Shown here piece after piece: positions 6,490 to 24,520 of a stretch of 27,534 bases of DNA (the first letter of the stretch is position 1; each line of letters starts with the position of its first letter). The position numbers and the translations under genes are program-made. This DNA is from Candidatus Heimdallarchaeota archaeon (GTDB lineage Archaea > Asgardarchaeota > Heimdallarchaeia > Heimdallarchaeales > Heimdallarchaeaceae), in assembly GCA_019057375.1 (NCBI GenBank), contig DXJF01000067.1, positions 1 through 27,534 on the forward strand, written 5' to 3'. The notes beneath the pieces were generated by a model. That model did not search any database and had not been told where the DNA came from. It saw only the letters and a program-made list of their open reading frames with translations.

Positions 6490-6810
6490 GTGGCTAATAA
6501 TAGAGGTAGAAAGAACAAGAAACAGAATATTAACGACTTGAAAGCTGATAAACAAAAAGAACCAATAAAAGATTTTTCACAAACAAAGGATATAGTCAAA
6601 GCTCTATCTGGAGAAATTGGACCTTTAGTAGAGCAACTTCTTGGAGCAGTCTATAATGTTGAGGTTGCAGAAGATTTTGCTGACTCCTTAATTCGAATTT
6701 ACAAAAAATTAAGGGATGAAGGAATTACCAAAACAACAGCAGAAAAAATACTTTGTGAATACTCATCCAATGTAGACCGGTTCGCTTCTATGTTGAAGAA
6801 AAAAGAATAA
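6490..6810 (+). CDS. Small helical hypothetical protein
   Basis: Likely GTG start at 6490 (MANNRGRK...); the longer ORF-track version overlaps the upstream gene and its terminator. Amphipathic helices such as FADSLIRIYKKLRDEGITKTTAEKIL. Confidence 0.65.
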   Translation: MANNRGRKNKKQNINDLKADKQKEPIKDFSQTKDIVKALSGEIGPLVEQLLGAVYNVEVAEDFADSLIRIYKKLRDEGITKTTAEKILCEYSSNVDRFASMLKKKE

Positions 6811-6889
6811 TCACCAAACAGACACATTTCCTATTGACCAAGTTTAAACAAGGGATAAAGTTCCAAAAAGATAACTCTGAGGTACAAAA

Positions 6890-7180
6890 ATGGGTAAATT
6901 TTCAATATTTAATCTAATAACTACTCTGTATTATAGATTTGTACTTAGAATAAAACTCAGTTGGTACTCCAGAAAGAAAAGTAAGAAGAAAAAAATGATT
7001 AAAGCGTTCTTAGTTAACAAACTAGAAAAGGAAAAATATAATGAAAAATATATTGAAAAAATTGCAGAGAACTATCTTAAAACCGGCGAAATCTTTTTAG
7101 ATCAAAAAAATATGCGCACTGCATTTAGAGTCAATAGGTTATTGGTTCCTAAAAAAACTAAGGGTAAAAGCAAGAACTGA
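6890..7180 (+). CDS. Small basic hypothetical protein
   Basis: ATG-started 96-aa ORF in the run direction, Lys-rich, with a helical core FLVNKLEKEKYNEKYIEKIAENYL. Confidence 0.6.
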   Translation: MGKFSIFNLITTLYYRFVLRIKLSWYSRKKSKKKKMIKAFLVNKLEKEKYNEKYIEKIAENYLKTGEIFLDQKNMRTAFRVNRLLVPKKTKGKSKN

Positions 7181-7260
7181 AAACCTTTTTGTCTGAGAAG
7201 TGTTTTATCCATTTCAAAATCTTTATTTTAGTGAAAGAAAGCTCTAATTTGGGTTATTCT

Positions 7261-7947
7261 ATGTCTAAACCAAAGAAGTATAAAGGCGAAACTATCTATG
7301 ATTATGTTCCTGATTATTATCCAACTACAAATGTAGACAATCCTGTTTTTACAAAACTACCGCCAGGAAGAAAGGATTCAAGGATGAAAGATGTTGAAAG
7401 AGAACTTGTACAATATTGGGAAATTATCCATCCGATGGTAAGAGAATATCTAATCACAGTGGTTAGATATATGAATGAATTTGGAGAAGGATCTGAGGAT
7501 CTCGAACATCTAAGAAGAGCATTAGATTTGGAATTAACAAACTCATCAGAGTTGTCTGAAGAAAATAGACAACTGAAAGCTCAAATTTCTGACTTAGTAA
7601 TTGATAAGAAAGCTTTGAATGAGAAAATAAATGACCTTTTAGATGCAAGACCAAAAGCATCAGCAGAGGAAATTAATGCTATGAAACTTCTTGTTTCTTC
7701 ACAAACAGATTTGTCAGCAGCTGATATTGATGAGAAAATGAGAAAAGCAATTCAAGAAGTCAGAGAAAGTGTAGAGATGAAAAAAGCAAATGAGGATCGA
7801 GCTAAGATGAAAAAGGAACTTGAGGTAGCAAAAGAGCACTTTGAGAAAACTCAAACTGAAGTAGGTACAACATTTCAGAAGAAACTACTAGAAGCTCAGA
7901 GTAGAATAGATGAACTAGAAGAAGAATTAGCTCAGCATAAAGAGTAA
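7261..7947 (+). CDS. Coiled-coil protein, function unknown
   Basis: ATG 7261; heptad-rich segments (LSEENRQLKAQISDL; LLEAQSRIDELEEEL); stop overlaps the next start by 1 nt (TAATG). Confidence 0.8.
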   Translation: MSKPKKYKGETIYDYVPDYYPTTNVDNPVFTKLPPGRKDSRMKDVERELVQYWEIIHPMVREYLITVVRYMNEFGEGSEDLEHLRRALDLELTNSSELSEENRQLKAQISDLVIDKKALNEKINDLLDARPKASAEEINAMKLLVSSQTDLSAADIDEKMRKAIQEVRESVEMKKANEDRAKMKKELEVAKEHFEKTQTEVGTTFQKKLLEAQSRIDELEEELAQHKE

Positions 7948-8717
7948 TGAGGATGAATAATTTGCGCAAATGGAATTTCAAAGTGGTTTTAGCAGGACCA
8001 GGAGCAGTTGGTAAAACCTCTATTCGAGAAAGATATATGGGAAAGGGATTTGAGTCTAGTTATCTCAAAACTATTGGTGCTGATTTCGCAAGTAAAAAAA
8101 TACAAAAAGAGGAAGACCTAATCACATTTCAAATCTGGGATTTAGCTGGTCAAGACAGCTATCAAGTTGTTCGAAGTACCTTCTATAAGGGCGCCATAGC
8201 AGGAATTCTCGTTTTTGATTGTCAAGATCCCACTACAATGACCAATCTAAAAGAATGGTTAGATGAAGCTATCAAAGGGTCAAATAATAGCATACTTGTT
8301 TATATTGTCATTGCCAATAAAATCGATTTAGAAGAGGAGAGGCGAGTTTCTCGTGATATGGCTTTAGAGTTTTGTAATCGTATGAAAACTGAAACAGGCA
8401 TTCGGTTTTATTATAGTGAAACCAGTGCTTTAACTGGACAAAACATACAAGAAACTTTTGAATTTCTTTCTGACAAATTACTTGAAGTTAACAACATAAA
8501 AAATGCAATACCTTTTGCAAAGACTAATGGTATCATTGATCTTGATGATTATGATGAAACCCCAAAAGAGGTTTTATCTGTTTCAGTTTCTTCAGATTCA
8601 GTTTCTCGAGATGAATTCACTGAACTTCAGAATAGAATACAAGCAATTGAAGAGAGATTAAATACTATTCAAACAATAATTAAGAAAATCGTTGAAAAAA
8701 TCCAAGAAGAAGAATAG
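7947..8717 (+). CDS. Rab-like small GTPase with C-terminal coiled-coil extension
   Basis: G1 GPGAVGKT, G2 YLKTIGADF, G3 WDLAGQ, G4 NKID, G5 ETSA; tail FTELQNRIQAIEERLNTIQTII. Confidence 0.92.
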   Translation: MRMNNLRKWNFKVVLAGPGAVGKTSIRERYMGKGFESSYLKTIGADFASKKIQKEEDLITFQIWDLAGQDSYQVVRSTFYKGAIAGILVFDCQDPTTMTNLKEWLDEAIKGSNNSILVYIVIANKIDLEEERRVSRDMALEFCNRMKTETGIRFYYSETSALTGQNIQETFEFLSDKLLEVNNIKNAIPFAKTNGIIDLDDYDETPKEVLSVSVSSDSVSRDEFTELQNRIQAIEERLNTIQTIIKKIVEKIQEEE

Positions 8718-8728
8718 AGTTTTACACC

Positions 8729-10009
8729 CTATATAACAATCTTTTTTCCACAGTCAGTACAAAATTCTGCCCCTTCTATCATTAATGCAGAGCAAGCTGG
8801 ACATCTTTCTTCTCTTTCACCATTAAAATGTCTTGATCCAGTTTCTTTATTATTTTTCTTTTCACTTTCTGATTGAGAGGAAGAATATTTGCTTTTTATC
8901 CAGCTTAGACTTGGTGGTTCCGCATATTCTTTGATCAATCCTTCATAGTAGTAAATTTCATTTATATCCACAAAACTCCCAACAATCACACTAACTGAAA
9001 AGAAGAGGAAGACTAAGCTACATATAGCATAGTCTGAACCTGAAACTGCTGAATCAACTGCTGGTGAAAAAATGCTAAGAAAGATCTTAGAAAATGAATT
9101 TAATCCTGCAATAAATATTGAAGCTGGTACCAAGAAGGATATCAACCCACTTTGAACAATACGTTTAGTGCTATATTTTGGAAATTGGAAAGCATCCGAA
9201 AAACTCTGAAAAACGCTAGATTCTCGTAGAGATGATAGCATTTTAGCTATTCTGAATATAGGGGATATAATGGAGAGAACAATTGCTGTTAATAAGAAGG
9301 GGAAGTAGATAGCAATATTCTGATTTGATCCCTGGGAGATGCTTTGAAATATCTCAACAAATGTCATTGATATTGCGCTAATAGTAACTATTTGAATTAG
9401 ATAAATTAGTCCATAAGTAAATATGTTTGAATTCTTAGTTTCTGAACTAGTGCCTTTCCAAGCCCCTATAGTTTGTGCAATTCTACTATTAAACACATAA
9501 ATCAGAAATGTAATTGCAAAAAATGAAAGAATCGTAAACAACACTGAGGCCCAAGAAGTTGGAAGAATACCAAGCACCAACAACAGTGATAAATTAATAA
9601 AAATAATCAACGCTAATGATGTTAAAACACCTAAAACCCCAATGAGAAACATCTCTCCAAGGGATAGGTTTTTGAAAAACCTTAGTTGTAATTTGGGTGC
9701 TTTGAAGTTATCGCTATAGCTTATTTGGCCCTTCATCCTCAATGGTACAAATGAATCGGAAGCACTCCATGCAAATTGAGTTGAATCTAGCACATAATCT
9801 CCGCTCTCGGTCTTAGTTTCTATTGGTTCATCTCTAAAAGAAGGTCGAGATGTGGGATTGTTTGGTGGAAAATCATATGATGATTCAGAAGTTGGTGCAA
9901 TTTTTGCTACTTGTGTTTCCAACTCTGTTCCGCAAATAGGACAAAATACCACTTTTGTCGGGAATGTAGAGTAACATATAGGACATCTCTTATCAGAAAT
10001 AATATTCAC
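8729..10009 (-). CDS. Multi-pass membrane protein with N- and C-terminal double Zn ribbons
   Basis: CPIC...CPICG near the N-terminus, CPAC...CTDCG at the C-terminus, and about six hydrophobic segments in between. Confidence 0.8.
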   Translation of the reverse strand: MNIISDKRCPICYSTFPTKVVFCPICGTELETQVAKIAPTSESSYDFPPNNPTSRPSFRDEPIETKTESGDYVLDSTQFAWSASDSFVPLRMKGQISYSDNFKAPKLQLRFFKNLSLGEMFLIGVLGVLTSLALIIFINLSLLLVLGILPTSWASVLFTILSFFAITFLIYVFNSRIAQTIGAWKGTSSETKNSNIFTYGLIYLIQIVTISAISMTFVEIFQSISQGSNQNIAIYFPFLLTAIVLSIISPIFRIAKMLSSLRESSVFQSFSDAFQFPKYSTKRIVQSGLISFLVPASIFIAGLNSFSKIFLSIFSPAVDSAVSGSDYAICSLVFLFFSVSVIVGSFVDINEIYYYEGLIKEYAEPPSLSWIKSKYSSSQSESEKKNNKETGSRHFNGEREERCPACSALMIEGAEFCTDCGKKIVI

Positions 10010-20070: not shown

Positions 20071-21444
<1,374 letters not shown>

Positions 21445-21449
21445 AAACT

Positions 21450-21479
21450 AAATTTCGATGGATCATCCATCGATAATTT
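21450..21479. terminator. Hairpin between convergent gdhA and the PPDK_N gene, possibly a bidirectional terminator
   Basis: TCGATGGA-TCA-TCCATCGA (21455-21473) is a perfect 8-bp stem, extendable by AAATT/AATTT with one bulge, and is flanked by A- and T-rich tracts. Confidence 0.6.
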
Positions 21480-21482
21480 TTC

Positions 21483-24377
21483 TTATTTTTTAGGTTTTAA
21501 TATTATTCCTTCTCGTTTTTGAGCATCAATTCTGACTGTTAAAGGGTTTTTCAACTCAATGTGTCTTACAAACTTTAAATCAGTTTCAGATTTTTGTTTG
21601 TTTATCCAATCCCAGTCTATCTTATGATGTTCAGATTTGTGCTTAATATGGAAATACCCAATATTAGCTGATACAATATTATGGAAGAAATGAGTACCTT
21701 GAGAAAAATCAATTGAGAAACCTTCTAGAGATGTCTCAATTATAGTTTTCGCCCCATTAATATTACTCCATTTAGCTGGGATTCCTAAAAATCTATCAGC
21801 TGTCCCCCATCTACCAAAACCTATTAACAAGTAGGGACGATTCTTTTTAGTTAATTGGGCATTTAGTAAATTTATTTCTTCAACAATTTCTAGAGTTTTG
21901 GTCTTATCAAACATTTCTGCTTTAACATAAACAATATCCTTGATATCCGATTGGAGAAGATTTCCTGACACATGCGAAGAAAACGCTAAGATTTGATTAA
22001 CGTCTACAATCTCAAAATCATCCAATAAAAGGGCTTCTTGTTGTAAGAATGGTCGTATTTGTAATATAGAGAATTGATCCTTCTCGCGCTTCGAATTACT
22101 GAAGTTTCCAGCAAACTCAATTTCTATTGAAGAACCTAGAGCTCTTTCACCAATAGATAAAATTCTGGTTATCAATCTTGCTAAAGGTGTAGTTTCAAAT
22201 TTTAATTGCTGATTGAATGTTATAATAGGTGATCCTTCTCCAAAGAAACCTTCCTCTAAAGATTCTGTATTGAAATTATAATTATCTGCGATTTTAGCTA
22301 AGGTTCCCTCTTCAATGGCATCTCCAAGGTGTAAGCGTTTAATATATGGATCATCATCTAGAATATCAAATTCAGTTTTTGTTAAATCAACACCATAATA
22401 ATATTTTTGGCTTTGATCTAATAATAAATCAGGTGTCGAGTGGTAATTTAATTTAGGATACTTTGGACAAAACCGAACAGAAGATTCTCCTTCAACAATT
22501 GTTTTACCAAGTCCTAGAGCTAGATGTGCAATTCTATCTTCAGGTTTCATATAGTCTCCAAATGGGTAATAATTATATGATGCAGCAGTTCCAGAGAAAT
22601 CTGGATAATAATGATTGTGTCTTTCCTTTCCTACTACTTTTTGTATAACAACTGCCATTTTCGATTCTTCAACGGTCTGTTGAATGGTTTCAGCATATGA
22701 CTTTGCAAGTTTTAAGAATTGAGATGCATAAACAAGTTTTATAGCTGTACATAGTTGCTCAAGCTTTTCCTTCTTACTTCCTTGATTATTGGGAATCATG
22801 TATGTATCGAATATACCTGCAAATGGTTGATATGCTGAATCTTCTAGAAGACTTGATGAACGAACAGCTAAAGGACCATCTAAATCTTTGAGAAGAAACG
22901 TTAAATCATTTCTTAGACTCCTTGATAGTTTGCTATTAACAAAACTCTTCTTTATTTCAGAATCTTGAGCATCTGATAAAGCGAATTCATATAGATTATT
23001 ATCTTCCATAAACTTATCATATTCATCAGTACCAATAACAATGGTTTTTGGAATTTCAATATTTACAGTAGGAAATTCATCTTTAATTGTGAAAGAGTTA
23101 AGAAGGAACATCAAGAAAGCAATACCTCTTCCTTTTCCTCCTAATGAACCGGGTCGTAATCTTAGATAGAGAGTCTCAGGGTGATAATTATCTCGAGAGA
23201 AATCATTAATAACACCTCTTGTTTTTTCTATTACAATATTATCTATTGTTCTAATTAGAAAGTCTCTAAGCTCAATTTCAGTAAATTCAGAAACTTTCCG
23301 AGGTTTCAATGTTTCAGCAATTTCGAATTCACCTCTTGCATGTAACCAGTTAGAGAAATGATCACTTTTTCCATGATAAACTAAGGAATTTAAAGGTACT
23401 TCAGAAAGTTGCTTGTAAAAAGTAATTACATCAGTAGCATGACCATAAATATTGTCATCCTGATCTTTAAATATGAACTCTCCAAATCCAACATATTCAA
23501 GAAGCCATTTCCGAAGATCCCACAGCATTCCATGTGACCGTTTATGAATGAAATAACAGTGCATCTCTTCGGCTTGTTCTCGATAAAAATCTTTACTTGA
23601 TTGTAAAACAATAGGTAAGTTGGGAAAATCTTCTTTTATTCTCTCTGCGAAGAGAAATCCAGCATTTTTGTTGAGTTCTCCATCAAGAGGAAACTCGATA
23701 TCTGAGATAACACCCATTACGTATTCTTTATAGCGTTCATAATATGACATAGCTTCTTCATAATTCTCTGCAAGCAGAATTTTTGGTCTTACCCGCATCT
23801 TGAGTAAATCCTGATAATCATTTGTACCTTCAGTAATTAACCGATGAGTTTGTCTCATAATTTCTCCATAAACTTCTGGAAGCATTAGAGAATAGAACCT
23901 AATCGAATCATCAACGAAGATAAAAACTCTTACATTACCAGCATTTGTATCGAAATCTGCATTAAGTTTATCCTCAAGATGTTTGATAATAGCAATGAAA
24001 ATTTTACTATCTCCATTCCAAACAAAGACTCTATCTATACCTTTTCGTTTACTAAATTCTGGAAGATACTTGATTTCTACAACACTATTTAATAGAAGAA
24101 TTACAGGAATATCTTGGATTTCTTTAACATTTGCTCCAAAAGAAAAAGCATCCATATCACCTAATCGTCTCATGGTAATAACTAAATCAAATTTTTTCTC
24201 TTCTAGCAGATCCAAGGCTTCATTAGCAGAAGATACACGAGTAATTCTTGGTAGAGTTCGAAGATTGAGATTTTGAAATTCTTCATAAATTTGATCAGAT
24301 AATCGACCATCCTCTTCGAGCATAAAACTATCATAAATACTAGAAACAAGAAGGACATTGCTCATTCTTCTATTCAT
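21483..24377 (-). CDS. Receiver-domain + PEP/pyruvate-binding (PPDK_N ATP-grasp) protein, PEP-synthase-related
   Basis: ATP-grasp motifs LGGKGRG, PLAVRSSSLLEDS..PFAGIFDTY, MAVVIQKVVG, LGLGKTIVEG, IEIEFA, LQIRP. Two N-terminal receiver-like folds. No pyruvate-binding TIM barrel. The true start is probably upstream of 24377. Confidence 0.85.
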   Translation of the reverse strand: MNRRMSNVLLVSSIYDSFMLEEDGRLSDQIYEEFQNLNLRTLPRITRVSSANEALDLLEEKKFDLVITMRRLGDMDAFSFGANVKEIQDIPVILLLNSVVEIKYLPEFSKRKGIDRVFVWNGDSKIFIAIIKHLEDKLNADFDTNAGNVRVFIFVDDSIRFYSLMLPEVYGEIMRQTHRLITEGTNDYQDLLKMRVRPKILLAENYEEAMSYYERYKEYVMGVISDIEFPLDGELNKNAGFLFAERIKEDFPNLPIVLQSSKDFYREQAEEMHCYFIHKRSHGMLWDLRKWLLEYVGFGEFIFKDQDDNIYGHATDVITFYKQLSEVPLNSLVYHGKSDHFSNWLHARGEFEIAETLKPRKVSEFTEIELRDFLIRTIDNIVIEKTRGVINDFSRDNYHPETLYLRLRPGSLGGKGRGIAFLMFLLNSFTIKDEFPTVNIEIPKTIVIGTDEYDKFMEDNNLYEFALSDAQDSEIKKSFVNSKLSRSLRNDLTFLLKDLDGPLAVRSSSLLEDSAYQPFAGIFDTYMIPNNQGSKKEKLEQLCTAIKLVYASQFLKLAKSYAETIQQTVEESKMAVVIQKVVGKERHNHYYPDFSGTAASYNYYPFGDYMKPEDRIAHLALGLGKTIVEGESSVRFCPKYPKLNYHSTPDLLLDQSQKYYYGVDLTKTEFDILDDDPYIKRLHLGDAIEEGTLAKIADNYNFNTESLEEGFFGEGSPIITFNQQLKFETTPLARLITRILSIGERALGSSIEIEFAGNFSNSKREKDQFSILQIRPFLQQEALLLDDFEIVDVNQILAFSSHVSGNLLQSDIKDIVYVKAEMFDKTKTLEIVEEINLLNAQLTKKNRPYLLIGFGRWGTADRFLGIPAKWSNINGAKTIIETSLEGFSIDFSQGTHFFHNIVSANIGYFHIKHKSEHHKIDWDWINKQKSETDLKFVRHIELKNPLTVRIDAQKREGIILKPKK

Positions 24378-24520
24378 AAGTTCATGAAAGATTTTGTACT
24401 TTGGTTTATATTCTAGAAAGAAGCTTACTGCTTCTTGATCAGTAGTCAGTTTATCACATCCTGAGAACTTCTTAACAGACAGTTAGACATAACATCATAT
24501 GACATTTAAATATGTTGAAG

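What the first reader, a model, noticed from the sequence alone, without database searches (positions are those of the whole stretch)
21483..24377. Candidate non-canonical phosphorelay: receiver domains + ATP-grasp + cryptic phospho-His domain in one protein
Seen: pseudo-receiver 1 has Met69 at the acceptor position (DLVITMRR). Receiver 2 looks intact (VDD156-157, acceptor-like SD226IEFP, LQSS, FIHK). A full PPDK_N ATP-grasp follows, then a C-terminal segment AKTIIET...SQGTH896FFHNIVSANIGYF. That segment aligns in register with the PEP-synthase swivel motif AIVT...TSHAAIVSRELGIPAV (T/S-H, then I at +10). Known: in PEP synthase, PPDK and rifampin phosphotransferase the ATP-grasp phosphorylates the swivel His, which passes phosphate to a substrate domain. 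Here the pyruvate barrel is missing and no HisKA/HATPase kinase is in the window. Inference: the acceptor may be its own receiver Asp226 or a partner protein, giving a His-to-Asp relay built from PEP-synthase parts rather than a classical histidine kinase. A 'PEP synthase' label would hide this.
Basis: partly seen in the sequence, partly recalled or inferred. Interest (0 to 1): 0.82.

Follow-up and report, generated by a model that had tools for sequence, protein, structure and literature searches.

The report
Receiver-gated dikinase-like enzyme beside GDH
This Heimdall-type Asgard archaeal gene encodes an untested signalling enzyme (two receiver domains, the ATP-using half of PEP synthase and a remodelled phospho-histidine carrier domain) whose relatives sit next to glutamate dehydrogenase genes in many phyla, so it probably controls that central nitrogen enzyme rather than making PEP.

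Summary
Models and fold searches show two receiver folds (REC1 without the acceptor Asp, REC2 complete) and an intact PPDK_N ATP-grasp. The 185-aa C-terminal domain has a swivelling beta/beta/alpha fold. Its best solved matches are phospho-histidine carrier domains (PPDK, rifampin phosphotransferase, Enzyme I; Z 5.6-7.2). No sequence profile detects this relationship.

H896 is invariant in every homologue examined. D226 is present in 64 of 65 long forms. However, homologues of 516-590 aa with no receiver keep the His, so the His does not depend on the receiver. The proposed His-to-own-Asp relay is therefore neither refuted nor favoured. A receiver-regulated dikinase module with an external acceptor fits better.

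The strongest new lead is context. Glutamate dehydrogenase is the commonest neighbour: 48 of 80 species loci in about 12 phyla, and 39 of 39 loci in two Heimdallarchaeial families, in different orientations. A GDH-module complex prediction gave weak support.

The REC-PPDK architecture is already catalogued (Galperin 2018), but no member has been characterised. This scan reached the same reading earlier on orthologues in other genomes.

The parts
21483..24377 (-). Whole gene: 964 codons plus TAA stop (21483-21485), counted from ATG 24375-24377
24378..24449 (-). In-frame upstream stretch of 24 codons, conserved with the N-termini of 988-991-aa homologues. The homologous start position is CTG (24447-24449), and there is no ATG/GTG/TTG between the upstream stop and ATG 24377
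23958..24368 (-). REC1, aa 4-140: receiver fold without the acidic pocket (SS12-13 for DD, M69 at the acceptor position, codon 24171-24173). An aspartate-less receiver
   Evidence: Pfam Response_reg 38-95, 29.8 bits, just under the cut-off of 30.2; model and VIA Z 14.4 to PorX REC; position 69 never Asp
23490..23936 (-). REC2, aa 148-296: complete receiver with D156/D157, acceptor D226 (codon 23700-23702) at the end of beta3, S260 at the end of beta4, and K279 after beta5
   Evidence: model; VIA Z 15.4 to ComE REC and many others; conservation
23154..23489 (-). Linker domain, aa 297-408: beta-hairpin plus helices. Weak DUF5752-like match, function unknown, with conserved W344 and R371
22041..23147 (-). 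PPDK/PEP-synthase-type ATP-grasp nucleotide-binding domain, aa 411-779. Invariant GGK415, R506-S-S, E512-D513, E752/E754 and Q773
   Evidence: Pfam PPDK_N E 3.9e-34; invariants
21486..22040 (-). C-terminal domain, aa 780-964: remodelled swivelling beta/beta/alpha domain, the candidate phospho-His carrier. Invariant R856 W857 G858 G865 E881 S892 G894 H896 (His codon 21690-21692)
20104..21444 (+). Glutamate dehydrogenase gene (446 aa), convergent with the gene with a 38-bp gap. The conserved neighbour of the family
21455..21473 (.). Perfect 9+9 palindrome (TCGATGGAT C ATCCATCGA) flanked by T-runs, between the two convergent stop codons. Likely a shared terminator
   Evidence: sequence read directly; function inferred

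Best explanation
The gene encodes a member of the uncharacterised 'REC-PPDK' response-regulator family. Its domain order is an Asp-less receiver (REC1), a complete receiver (REC2, D226), a small linker domain, an intact PPDK/PEP-synthase-type ATP-grasp, and a strongly remodelled swivelling phospho-histidine carrier domain (H896). It has no PEP/pyruvate barrel.

Proposed mechanism:
1. Inferred: REC2 is phosphorylated on D226 by a histidine kinase encoded elsewhere. With REC1 as an adaptor or dimerisation partner, it gates the catalytic core.
2. Inferred by analogy with PPDK, PEP synthase, rifampin phosphotransferase and VadK: the ATP-grasp transfers the beta-phosphate of ATP to H896.
3. Inferred: the swivelling domain carries the phosphate to an acceptor outside this polypeptide. 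Conserved gene linkage suggests the acceptor is the neighbouring glutamate dehydrogenase or something in its reaction. The protein would then be a two-component-controlled regulator of GDH, not a gluconeogenic enzyme.

Shown here: the domain folds, the residue conservation, the absence of a barrel, and the GDH linkage. Not shown: any phosphorylation, or the identity of the acceptor.
For: - Architecture: PPDK_N at 411-779, E 3.9e-34, with no barrel. The REC1 and REC2 folds give Z 14.4 and 15.4.
- C-domain model: pLDDT 91, pTM 0.89. In an all-against-48,161-chain structural search, five of the top eight matches are phospho-His carrier domains: 2fm4 PPDK carrier domain (Z 7.2, 119 aligned, rmsd 3.9), 2e28 pyruvate kinase C-terminal domain (Z 6.7), 5hv1 rifampin phosphotransferase 754-867 (Z 6.7), 1vbg PPDK 384-512 (Z 6.5), and Enzyme I (Z 5.6). 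The second look gives the same picture.
- Motif geometry: H896 sits at the N-cap of a helix after a G-[ST] loop, as the catalytic His does in the GG-x-TSH motif (the motif is visible in the canonical domains).
- Conservation: H896 is invariant in 79 diverse C-domains, 39 divergent full-length proteins and 65 species-level proteins. The ATP-grasp residues K415, R506, E752, E754 and Q773 are invariant. The REC2 residues D226 (64/65), S/T260 (65/65) and K279 (65/65) are conserved.
- Modularity: forms of about 580 aa (ATP-grasp plus C-domain only), about 990 aa (with receivers) and 1500-1650 aa (two modules) all exist. The receivers are therefore an add-on to a self-sufficient core.
- GDH linkage in Heimdallarchaeia: GDH is adjacent in 22/22 loci of family f1 (genera g1 and g6), mostly convergent, and in 17/17 loci of family f5, divergent.
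- GDH linkage across species: GDH lies within a few genes in 48 of 80 species loci, in Bacteroidota, Ignavibacteriota, Acidobacteriota, Eisenbacteria, Calditrichota, Cloacimonadota, Gemmatimonadota, Planctomycetota, Fibrobacterota, Actinomycetota and Pseudomonadota. The receiver-less forms lie directly downstream of a second GDH subfamily (30-33% identity), on the same strand.
- Complex prediction of GDH with the core 412-964: weak support. Score 0.48 against a best control of 0.00 (3 controls). The pass mark was reached by 58 of 80 solved complexes and 2 of 110 mismatched pairs, but at 0.60 or under by only 7 of those 80 and by both mismatches that passed. Runs agree in at least 93% of contacts, and partner pLDDT is at least 78.
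- Precedent: VadK, a barrel-less PPDK derivative, autophosphorylates its His and acts as a regulator (PMC13400623).
- Kinases elsewhere: the genome has at least 7 HATPase_c matches outside the window.
Against: - No sequence method links the C-domain to PEP-utilizers. Pfam finds nothing, a profile search of PDB sequences gives only a spurious longin hit, and hhalign against 25 canonical swivel domains gives probability 0.45%.
- The structural Z scores (7.2 or less) fall in the range the tool calls common. An unrelated DRTGG domain scores 6.8, and Foldseek alone finds nothing at E <= 0.001.
- The His register against the canonical catalytic His could not be checked by superposition, because no coordinates are returned.
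- The C-domain has many further invariant residues (R856, W857, D861, E881, S892) that canonical carrier domains lack. It may do more than carry phosphate, or do something else.
- GDH adjacency is absent in several Heimdallarchaeial families (f2, f3, f4, f6, f7, and f1-g9) and in 32 of 80 species loci.
- Related genomes are not independent samples.
- The complex score is a weak pass, and no interface was reported.
- No conserved histidine-kinase neighbour was found among the 80 loci.
Confidence: 0.55

Rival explanations
1. One reading: a self-contained His-to-Asp relay. The ATP-grasp phosphorylates H896, and the swivel domain then delivers the phosphate to D226 of REC2, in cis or across a dimer. 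This would replace a classical histidine kinase.
For: H896 and the complete REC2 phospho-acceptor set are both conserved in the long forms. They share one polypeptide. No histidine kinase is encoded in the window, and none is a recurrent neighbour in 80 loci. Receivers catalyse their own phosphorylation from various phospho-donors (established knowledge of two-component systems).
Against: Homologues of 516-590 aa without any receiver keep H896 and every C-domain invariant and still pair with GDH. The His therefore serves a purpose that does not need D226. The genome encodes kinase-type ATPase domains elsewhere, and orphan response regulators are common. I know of no precedent for phosphotransfer from a swivel domain to a receiver Asp, and found none. 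No structural test of H896-D226 proximity could be run.
Confidence: 0.12
2. The C-terminal domain is not a phospho-carrier. It is a substrate-binding or GDH-binding (or catalytic) domain that merely shares the common swivelling fold. H896 acts as a ligand or general base, and the ATP-grasp acts directly as a kinase or ligase on a small molecule of glutamate/2-oxoglutarate metabolism.
For: There is no detectable sequence homology to PEP-utilizers. The Z scores are only middling, and many unrelated swivelling-fold domains appear in the same list: chaperonin apical, PA, aconitase domain 4, MccF. The domain is about 60 residues larger than canonical carriers and has its own invariant cluster R856-W857-G858, D861, E881, S892. 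Some Bacteroides loci also carry 2-oxoacid:ferredoxin oxidoreductase genes upstream.
Against: The domain follows a PPDK_N ATP-grasp, as the carrier domain does in PPDK, PEP synthase and RPH. To my knowledge every characterised PPDK_N enzyme uses a phospho-His intermediate. The only invariant His lies in a G-[ST]-H loop at a helix N-cap, as in carriers. The top structural matches are carrier domains.
Confidence: 0.2
3. It is an ordinary PEP synthase or pyruvate phosphate dikinase, as database names such as 'PEP/pyruvate-binding domain-containing protein' imply.
For: The PPDK_N match, weak NCBIfam hits to PEP synthase models, and names given by sources.
Against: All NCBIfam scores are far below the cut-offs, for example 49 against 883 bits. 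There is no PEP-utilizers_C barrel or canonical PEP-utilizers domain. The genome has a separate canonical gene of about 906 aa with the GGLTSHAAIVAR motif.
Confidence: 0.02

Closest known systems
'REC-PPDK' response regulators catalogued by Galperin et al. 2018 (J Bacteriol 200:e00681-17, PMC5847659); ALR-PPDK association noted by Maule et al. 2015 (PMC4395418)
   Same: This is the same family. [quoted passage not shown] Heimdallarchaeota'. Maule et al. note that aspartate-less receivers are enriched on PPDK-type effector domains.
   Different: In the passages read, those censuses record only the domain combination. They give no C-terminal carrier-like domain, no GDH linkage and no function.
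VadK (Rv1127c) of Mycobacterium tuberculosis, a barrel-less PPDK-derived autokinase (PMC13400623)
   Same: It has an ATP-binding domain plus a phospho-His domain without the PEP/pyruvate barrel. It autophosphorylates its His with ATP/Mg and acts as a regulator of metabolic enzymes rather than as a PEP-forming enzyme.
   Different: VadK has no receiver domains, and its catalytic His was placed by overlaying a predicted structure on solved PPDK structures. Here the carrier domain is remodelled beyond sequence recognition. The linked pathway is GDH rather than the methylcitrate cycle. Sequence kinship to VadK was not tested.
Rifampin phosphotransferase, PEP synthase and PPDK (ATP-grasp plus swivelling His domain dikinases; PMC4844700, PMC5371819)
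   Same: It has the PPDK_N ATP-grasp with conserved nucleotide and Mg residues, followed by a swivelling-fold domain. The RPH swivel domain 754-867 and the PPDK carrier domains are among the best structural matches.
   Different: There is no third substrate domain (neither a TIM barrel nor a rifampin-binding domain). The C-domain is about 185 aa with extra conserved elements. Two receivers and a linker domain lie at the N-terminus.
Tandem-receiver response regulators with one degenerate receiver (for example the REC-REC-GGDEF regulator 3luf)
   Same: Two consecutive CheY-like domains precede an enzymatic output. 3luf aligns over residues 5-298 (224 aligned, Z 13.4).
   Different: The output here is a dikinase-type module, and the degenerate receiver is the first of the two.

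Membership tests
CheY-like receiver (REC) - REC2, aa 148-296 | (beta-alpha)5 flavodoxin-like receiver fold | tested here: met
   Model pLDDT 87. VIA Z 15.4, rmsd 2.3, 128 aligned to ComE REC, plus dozens of other receivers.
CheY-like receiver (REC) - REC2, aa 148-296 | Acidic pair after beta1, acceptor Asp at the end of beta3, Ser/Thr at the end of beta4, Lys after beta5 | tested here: met
   D156/D157, D226, S260 and K279 lie at those strand ends. In the family: D226 64/65, S/T260 65/65, K279 65/65, E/D156 65/65, D157 59/65.
CheY-like receiver (REC) - REC2, aa 148-296 | Match to Pfam Response_reg above the gathering score | tested here: not met
   Pfam reports no Response_reg stretch over REC2. 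The only hit is on REC1, residues 38-95, at 29.8 bits against a cut-off of 30.2.
CheY-like receiver (REC) - REC2, aa 148-296 | Phosphorylation of the acceptor Asp | not testable with these tools
   Needs biochemistry.
Aspartate-less receiver (ALR) - REC1, aa 4-140 | Receiver fold with the phospho-acceptor Asp replaced | tested here: met
   VIA Z 14.4 to PorX REC. M69 is at the end of beta3. Position 69 is M/T/S/F and others but never D in 116, 39 and 65 homologues. SS12-13 replaces the acidic pair.
PPDK_N ATP-grasp nucleotide-binding domain (PF01326) | Profile match above the gathering score | tested here: met
   118.8 bits against a cut-off of 27, E 3.9e-34, covering profile positions 3-311 of 328.
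PPDK_N ATP-grasp nucleotide-binding domain (PF01326) | Conserved nucleotide and Mg-binding residues (GGK, RSS, ED, ExE, QxR) | tested here: met
   G413-G414-K415, R506-S507-S508, E512-D513, E752/E754 and Q773 are invariant, and R775 is R or K. The mapping onto PPDK catalytic residues is from memory of the PPDK literature.
PEP-utilizers phospho-histidine swivel domain (PF00391) | Sequence or profile match to the family | tested here: not met
   No Pfam hit for the query or for any of 79 homologous C-domains. hhalign against 25 canonical domains gives probability 0.45%. The PDB profile search finds none.
PEP-utilizers phospho-histidine swivel domain (PF00391) | Swivelling beta/beta/alpha fold closest to solved phospho-His carrier domains | tested here: inconclusive
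   Top matches are 2fm4 (Z 7.2), 2e28 (Z 6.7), 5hv1 (Z 6.7), 1vbg (Z 6.5) and Enzyme I (Z 5.6). The Z values are middling and DRTGG scores 6.8. Foldseek finds nothing at E <= 0.001.
PEP-utilizers phospho-histidine swivel domain (PF00391) | Invariant His in a G-x-[ST]-H loop at a helix N-terminus, between two strands | tested here: met
   S892-Q-G894-T-H896 precedes helix 895-903, with flanking strands 876-882 and 907-911. The His is invariant. Superposition on the catalytic His was not possible.
PEP-utilizers phospho-histidine swivel domain (PF00391) | Phospho-His intermediate formed from ATP | not testable with these tools
   Needs labelling with beta- against gamma-32P ATP and an H896A mutant.
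PEP synthase / pyruvate phosphate dikinase (enzymes) | C-terminal PEP/pyruvate-binding TIM barrel (PEP-utilizers_C) | tested here: not met
   No such Pfam hit. The protein ends 68 residues after H896. All NCBIfam PEP-synthase scores are far below their cut-offs.
Classical histidine kinase | HisKA/DHp and HATPase_c domains | tested here: not met
   Neither is found in the protein.

The most novel reading that the evidence does not exclude
The ATP-grasp and swivel pair is an autokinase unrelated to histidine kinases. Its phospho-H896 feeds REC2-D226 (in cis or across a dimer) as well as, or instead of, an external acceptor. That would be a His-Asp phosphorelay built from PEP-synthase parts, coupling cellular ATP status to covalent or allosteric control of glutamate dehydrogenase in Asgard archaea and about a dozen bacterial phyla.
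Probability: 0.1. Interest if true: 0.85.

Novelty: new variant of a known kind. Interest (0 to 1): 0.6.

Why it matters
No member of this family has a known function, yet it is very widespread. There are 1430 clusters at 50% identity, at least 599 species genomes matched one peptide pattern, and 77 of 83 sampled Heimdallarchaeia genomes carry it. If it is a receiver-gated phospho-His enzyme acting on glutamate dehydrogenase, it would be a previously unrecognised post-translational or signalling control of the main carbon-nitrogen junction. That control would be shared by gut Bacteroidota, many sediment bacteria and the archaeal relatives of eukaryotes. It would also add a second example, after VadK, of PPDK machinery recruited for regulation. 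The result also corrects a misleading annotation ('PEP/pyruvate-binding', 'PEP synthase') and defines an unannotated domain with a clear mutational target, H896.

Tried and rejected
- Plus-strand reading of the given coordinates: full of stops. The gene is on the minus strand.
- Sequence routes to the C-domain's identity all failed. Pfam on the query and on 79 homologues found nothing. The PDB profile search gave only a spurious longin/VAMP7 hit at E 0.01. hhalign with -glob was meaningless, and in local mode gave probability 0.45% with a different, unreliable register. Foldseek against PDB had no hit at E <= 0.001.
- ESM Atlas searches, by features and by fold, returned only the family itself.
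- The weak HisF half-barrel hits over residues 263-372 are taken as the known flavodoxin-like/half-barrel resemblance, not as a domain assignment.
- The neighbouring genes in the window other than GDH (coiled-coil pair, six-HTH protein, Fe-S protein, Dpp transporter) are not recurrent neighbours across phyla and were dropped as partners.
- The PAS proteins next to GDH in family f5 have only a marginal HATPase_c match (E 0.028), so they cannot be called the cognate kinase.
- Literature searches found nothing for DUF5752, for reversible inactivation of Bacteroides GDH, or for gdhA together with PEP synthase and response regulator. My recollection of 1980s reports on reversible inactivation of Bacteroides fragilis GDH could not be verified and is not used as evidence.
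- A full-length model to measure the H896-ATP site and H896-D226 distances was not possible.
Full report
**What is there.** The coordinates 21483-24377 hold one open reading frame on the minus strand, not the plus strand. It gives 964 residues from ATG 24375-24377 to TAA 21483-21485. The window has 34% G+C. The closest homologues (55-94% identity) are named Candidatus Heimdallarchaeota, Heimdallarchaeaceae or Hodarchaeales, so this is an Asgard archaeal genome.

**N-terminal half.** Pfam recognises only PPDK_N (411-779, E 3.9e-34) and a sub-threshold Response_reg match on residues 38-95. An AlphaFold2 model of residues 1-408, built on 67 homologues (pLDDT 87), shows two (beta-alpha)5 units followed by a beta-hairpin and helical module. 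A structure search places both units firmly among receivers: residues 148-300 against ComE REC at Z 15.4, and residues 4-137 against PorX REC at Z 14.4.
- In REC2, D226 ends beta3, S260 ends beta4 and K279 follows beta5.
- In REC1, the acidic pair is SS and the acceptor is M69.
- In 65 proteins of at least 900 aa (the query plus one per species across many phyla), D226 is present in 64, K279 and S/T260 in all, and position 69 is never Asp.
- Residues 297-408 give only a weak DUF5752-like match, and their role is unknown.

**Catalytic core.** The ATP-grasp keeps GGK415, R506-S-S, E512-D513, E752/E754 and Q773 without exception.

The last 185 residues match no Pfam family. They define a large family: a search of 1.84 billion representatives found 1430 clusters at E <= 0.001. 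In 79 diverse copies, R856, W857, G858, G865, E881, S892, G894 and H896 are invariant.

The domain models with high confidence (pLDDT 91, pTM 0.89). Foldseek alone gives nothing significant. An exhaustive alignment to 48,161 chains puts the following at the top, and the second look agrees:
- the NMR structure of the PPDK phosphoryl-carrier domain (2fm4: Z 7.2, 119 of 128 residues aligned, rmsd 3.9);
- the PEP-utilizer-like C-terminal domain of Geobacillus pyruvate kinase (Z 6.7);
- the swivel domain of rifampin phosphotransferase (5hv1 residues 754-867, Z 6.7);
- maize PPDK residues 384-512 (Z 6.5);
- Enzyme I (Z 5.6).

The rest of the list is aconitase domain 4, chaperonin apical domains, PA domains, the N-domain of the CPS small subunit, RraA, cyclases, and LD-carboxypeptidase/MccF. 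From my memory of SCOP, that is essentially the membership of the 'swivelling beta/beta/alpha domain' fold. So the fold assignment is solid, while the superfamily assignment rests on rank, on position after a PPDK_N domain, and on the His motif.

H896 lies at the N-cap of helix 895-903, after strand 876-882 and before strand 907-911. This is the order strand, G-x-[ST]-H, helix, strand of canonical carriers, whose motif is visible. The C-terminal 'PLxIxxDGxxxxGxI' also resembles the canonical 'Gd.i.vDG..G.v' ending.

There are three caveats:
- Profile-profile comparison with 25 canonical domains from related genomes finds no homology (probability 0.45%).
- The Z values are in the range the tool calls common.
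- I could not superpose coordinates.

I put about 0.75-0.8 on 'derived phospho-His carrier domain'.

But conservation does not separate that model from an ordinary receiver-regulated enzyme. Three observations lean against the relay as the primary function:
- The family occurs as a bare core of 516-590 aa (ATP-grasp plus C-domain), as the roughly 990-aa receiver form, and as 1500-1650-aa double modules. The receiver-less forms keep every C-domain invariant.
- The genome has at least seven HATPase_c matches elsewhere, so the lack of a kinase in the window means little.
- The literature available to me holds no precedent.

The relay remains possible as an additional feedback route. I give it about 0.1.

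**Context: the unexpected part.** The gene converges on a glutamate dehydrogenase gene (20104-21444) with a 38-bp gap that contains a perfect palindrome.

Within the class, 77 of 83 sampled genomes carry the gene. GDH is adjacent in 22 of 22 loci of family f1 (genera g1 and g6), mostly convergent with one tandem case. It is adjacent in 17 of 17 loci of family f5, but divergent there, with a 270-1270-bp gap. It is not adjacent in families f2, f3, f4, f6 and f7, in f1 genus g9, or next to second paralogues.

In 80 loci drawn one per species from a collection of 185,579 genomes, GDH is by far the commonest neighbour: 43 loci by clustering and 48 by direct BLAST, confirmed as ELFV_dehydrog. These loci come from Bacteroidota, Ignavibacteriota, Acidobacteriota, Eisenbacteria, Calditrichota, Cloacimonadota, Gemmatimonadota, Planctomycetota, Fibrobacterota, Actinomycetota and Pseudomonadota (titles).

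The receiver-less forms lie directly downstream of a different GDH subfamily (30-33% identity to the window's GDH), on the same strand, with gaps of 28-290 bp. Linkage that survives changes of orientation, architecture and GDH subfamily argues for a functional partnership. Related genomes are not independent, however, and 32 of 80 loci lack GDH.

The second commonest neighbour is a tandem paralogue (28 of 80 loci), which suggests the module works as a pair.

A complex prediction of GDH with the core 412-964, using matched 41-row alignments, gave weak support:
- The score was 0.48 (runs 0.43, 0.51, 0.48), against a best of three controls of 0.00.
- The pass mark was reached by 58 of 80 solved complexes and 2 of 110 mismatches. 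At 0.60 or under, it was reached by only 7 of those 80 and by both mismatches that passed.
- Runs agreed in at least 93% of contacts, and partner pLDDT was at least 78.
- No interface was reported.

Given the prior from gene linkage, I treat this as a modest increment.

**Most likely mechanism.**
- Shown: the architecture, the residue conservation, the missing barrel, and the GDH linkage.
- Inferred by analogy with PPDK, PEP synthase, RPH and VadK (PMC4844700, PMC13400623): ATP-dependent autophosphorylation of H896 with the beta-phosphate, and swivelling delivery to an acceptor.
- Inferred from general two-component logic: phosphorylation of D226 by a separate kinase gates the core, with REC1 as adaptor.
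- Inferred from context: the acceptor or target is GDH or its reaction.

**Relation to what is known.** The domain combination is already catalogued. Galperin et al. [quoted passage not shown] Heimdallarchaeota'. Maule et al. 2015 note aspartate-less receivers on PPDK effectors. The passages I read from those papers record only the domain combination, and my other searches found no paper that describes the C-terminal carrier-like domain, the GDH linkage or any function.

It is not a PEP synthase or PPDK, because the barrel feature was tested and not met. A canonical gene of about 906 aa exists elsewhere in the genome. It works most like VadK or RPH: a barrel-less ATP-grasp plus His-domain phosphotransfer enzyme, here placed under receiver control.

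**Earlier findings of this scan.** Notes on the same stretch (e1-5718383) and follow-up reports on orthologues in other Heimdall genomes (e1-1465100, e1-5646008) reached the same reading: a receiver-fused dikinase-like protein linked to GDH. My fold, conservation and context tests were run independently here and agree with them.

**Verdict.** This is a new variant of a known kind, and it is of moderate to high interest because of its breadth and the testable GDH link.

Noticed in passing
window 24378-24449 (minus strand): The 24 codons upstream of ATG 24377 are in frame and nearly identical to the N-termini of 988-991-aa homologues (MTTDQ.AV.FFLEYKPKYKIFHEL). The homologous start codon is CTG here, and there is no ATG/GTG/TTG before ATG 24377. 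Either a CTG start is used or the start has recently shifted. Residue numbers in this report follow ATG 24377.
   Followed up: partly
window 21455-21473: A perfect 9+9 palindrome with flanking T-runs lies in the 38-bp gap between the convergent GDH gene and this gene. It is probably a shared bidirectional terminator.
   Followed up: no
L110, L112, L116, L119, L122, L130, L141, L162, L169, L178: Receiver-less 516-590-aa family members lie immediately downstream, on the same strand, of a second GDH subfamily that is only 30-33% identical to the window's GDH. The GDH link is therefore independent of the receivers and of GDH type.
   Followed up: partly
28 of 80 loci, e.g. L106:3088-6573 and 6570-9575; fused forms P0125, P0128, P0135: In many bacteria two paralogous REC-PPDK_N genes lie in tandem, and proteins of 1500-1650 aa carry two complete modules. 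This suggests the functional unit is a pair.
   Followed up: no
L030:4294-6216, L031:2338-4260, L032:2253-4169: In the Hodarchaeales-like family f5, a 640-aa multi-PAS protein lies beside the GDH/REC-PPDK pair, together with a roughly 1520-aa PAS protein. Its C-terminus has an H-box-like SHF motif and only a marginal HATPase_c match (E 0.028). It could be a divergent cognate kinase.
   Followed up: partly
L106:91-2960: In some Bacteroides loci, 2-oxoacid:ferredoxin oxidoreductase subunits (POR/POR_N and TPP_enzyme_C) lie directly upstream of the module. This is another tie to 2-oxoglutarate/glutamate metabolism.
   Followed up: no
P0001 residues 263-372 (window about 23262-23591): phmmer gives weak hits (E 4e-6 to 0.04) to HisF half-barrels and CheY-HisF chimeras, spanning the end of REC2 and the linker domain. 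This is probably the known flavodoxin-like/half-barrel resemblance.
   Followed up: no
P0094: One Hodarchaeales homologue carries a precomputed Pfam family PF27715.1 that I do not recognise and that did not appear among the Pfam matches I obtained. It may already cover one of the unannotated domains.
   Followed up: no
class-level genome sample: The gene is nearly universal and mostly single-copy in the class: 77 of 83 genomes, and 13 of 14 high-quality ones. A second paralogue at about 44% identity occurs in some f5 genomes, not next to GDH.
   Followed up: partly
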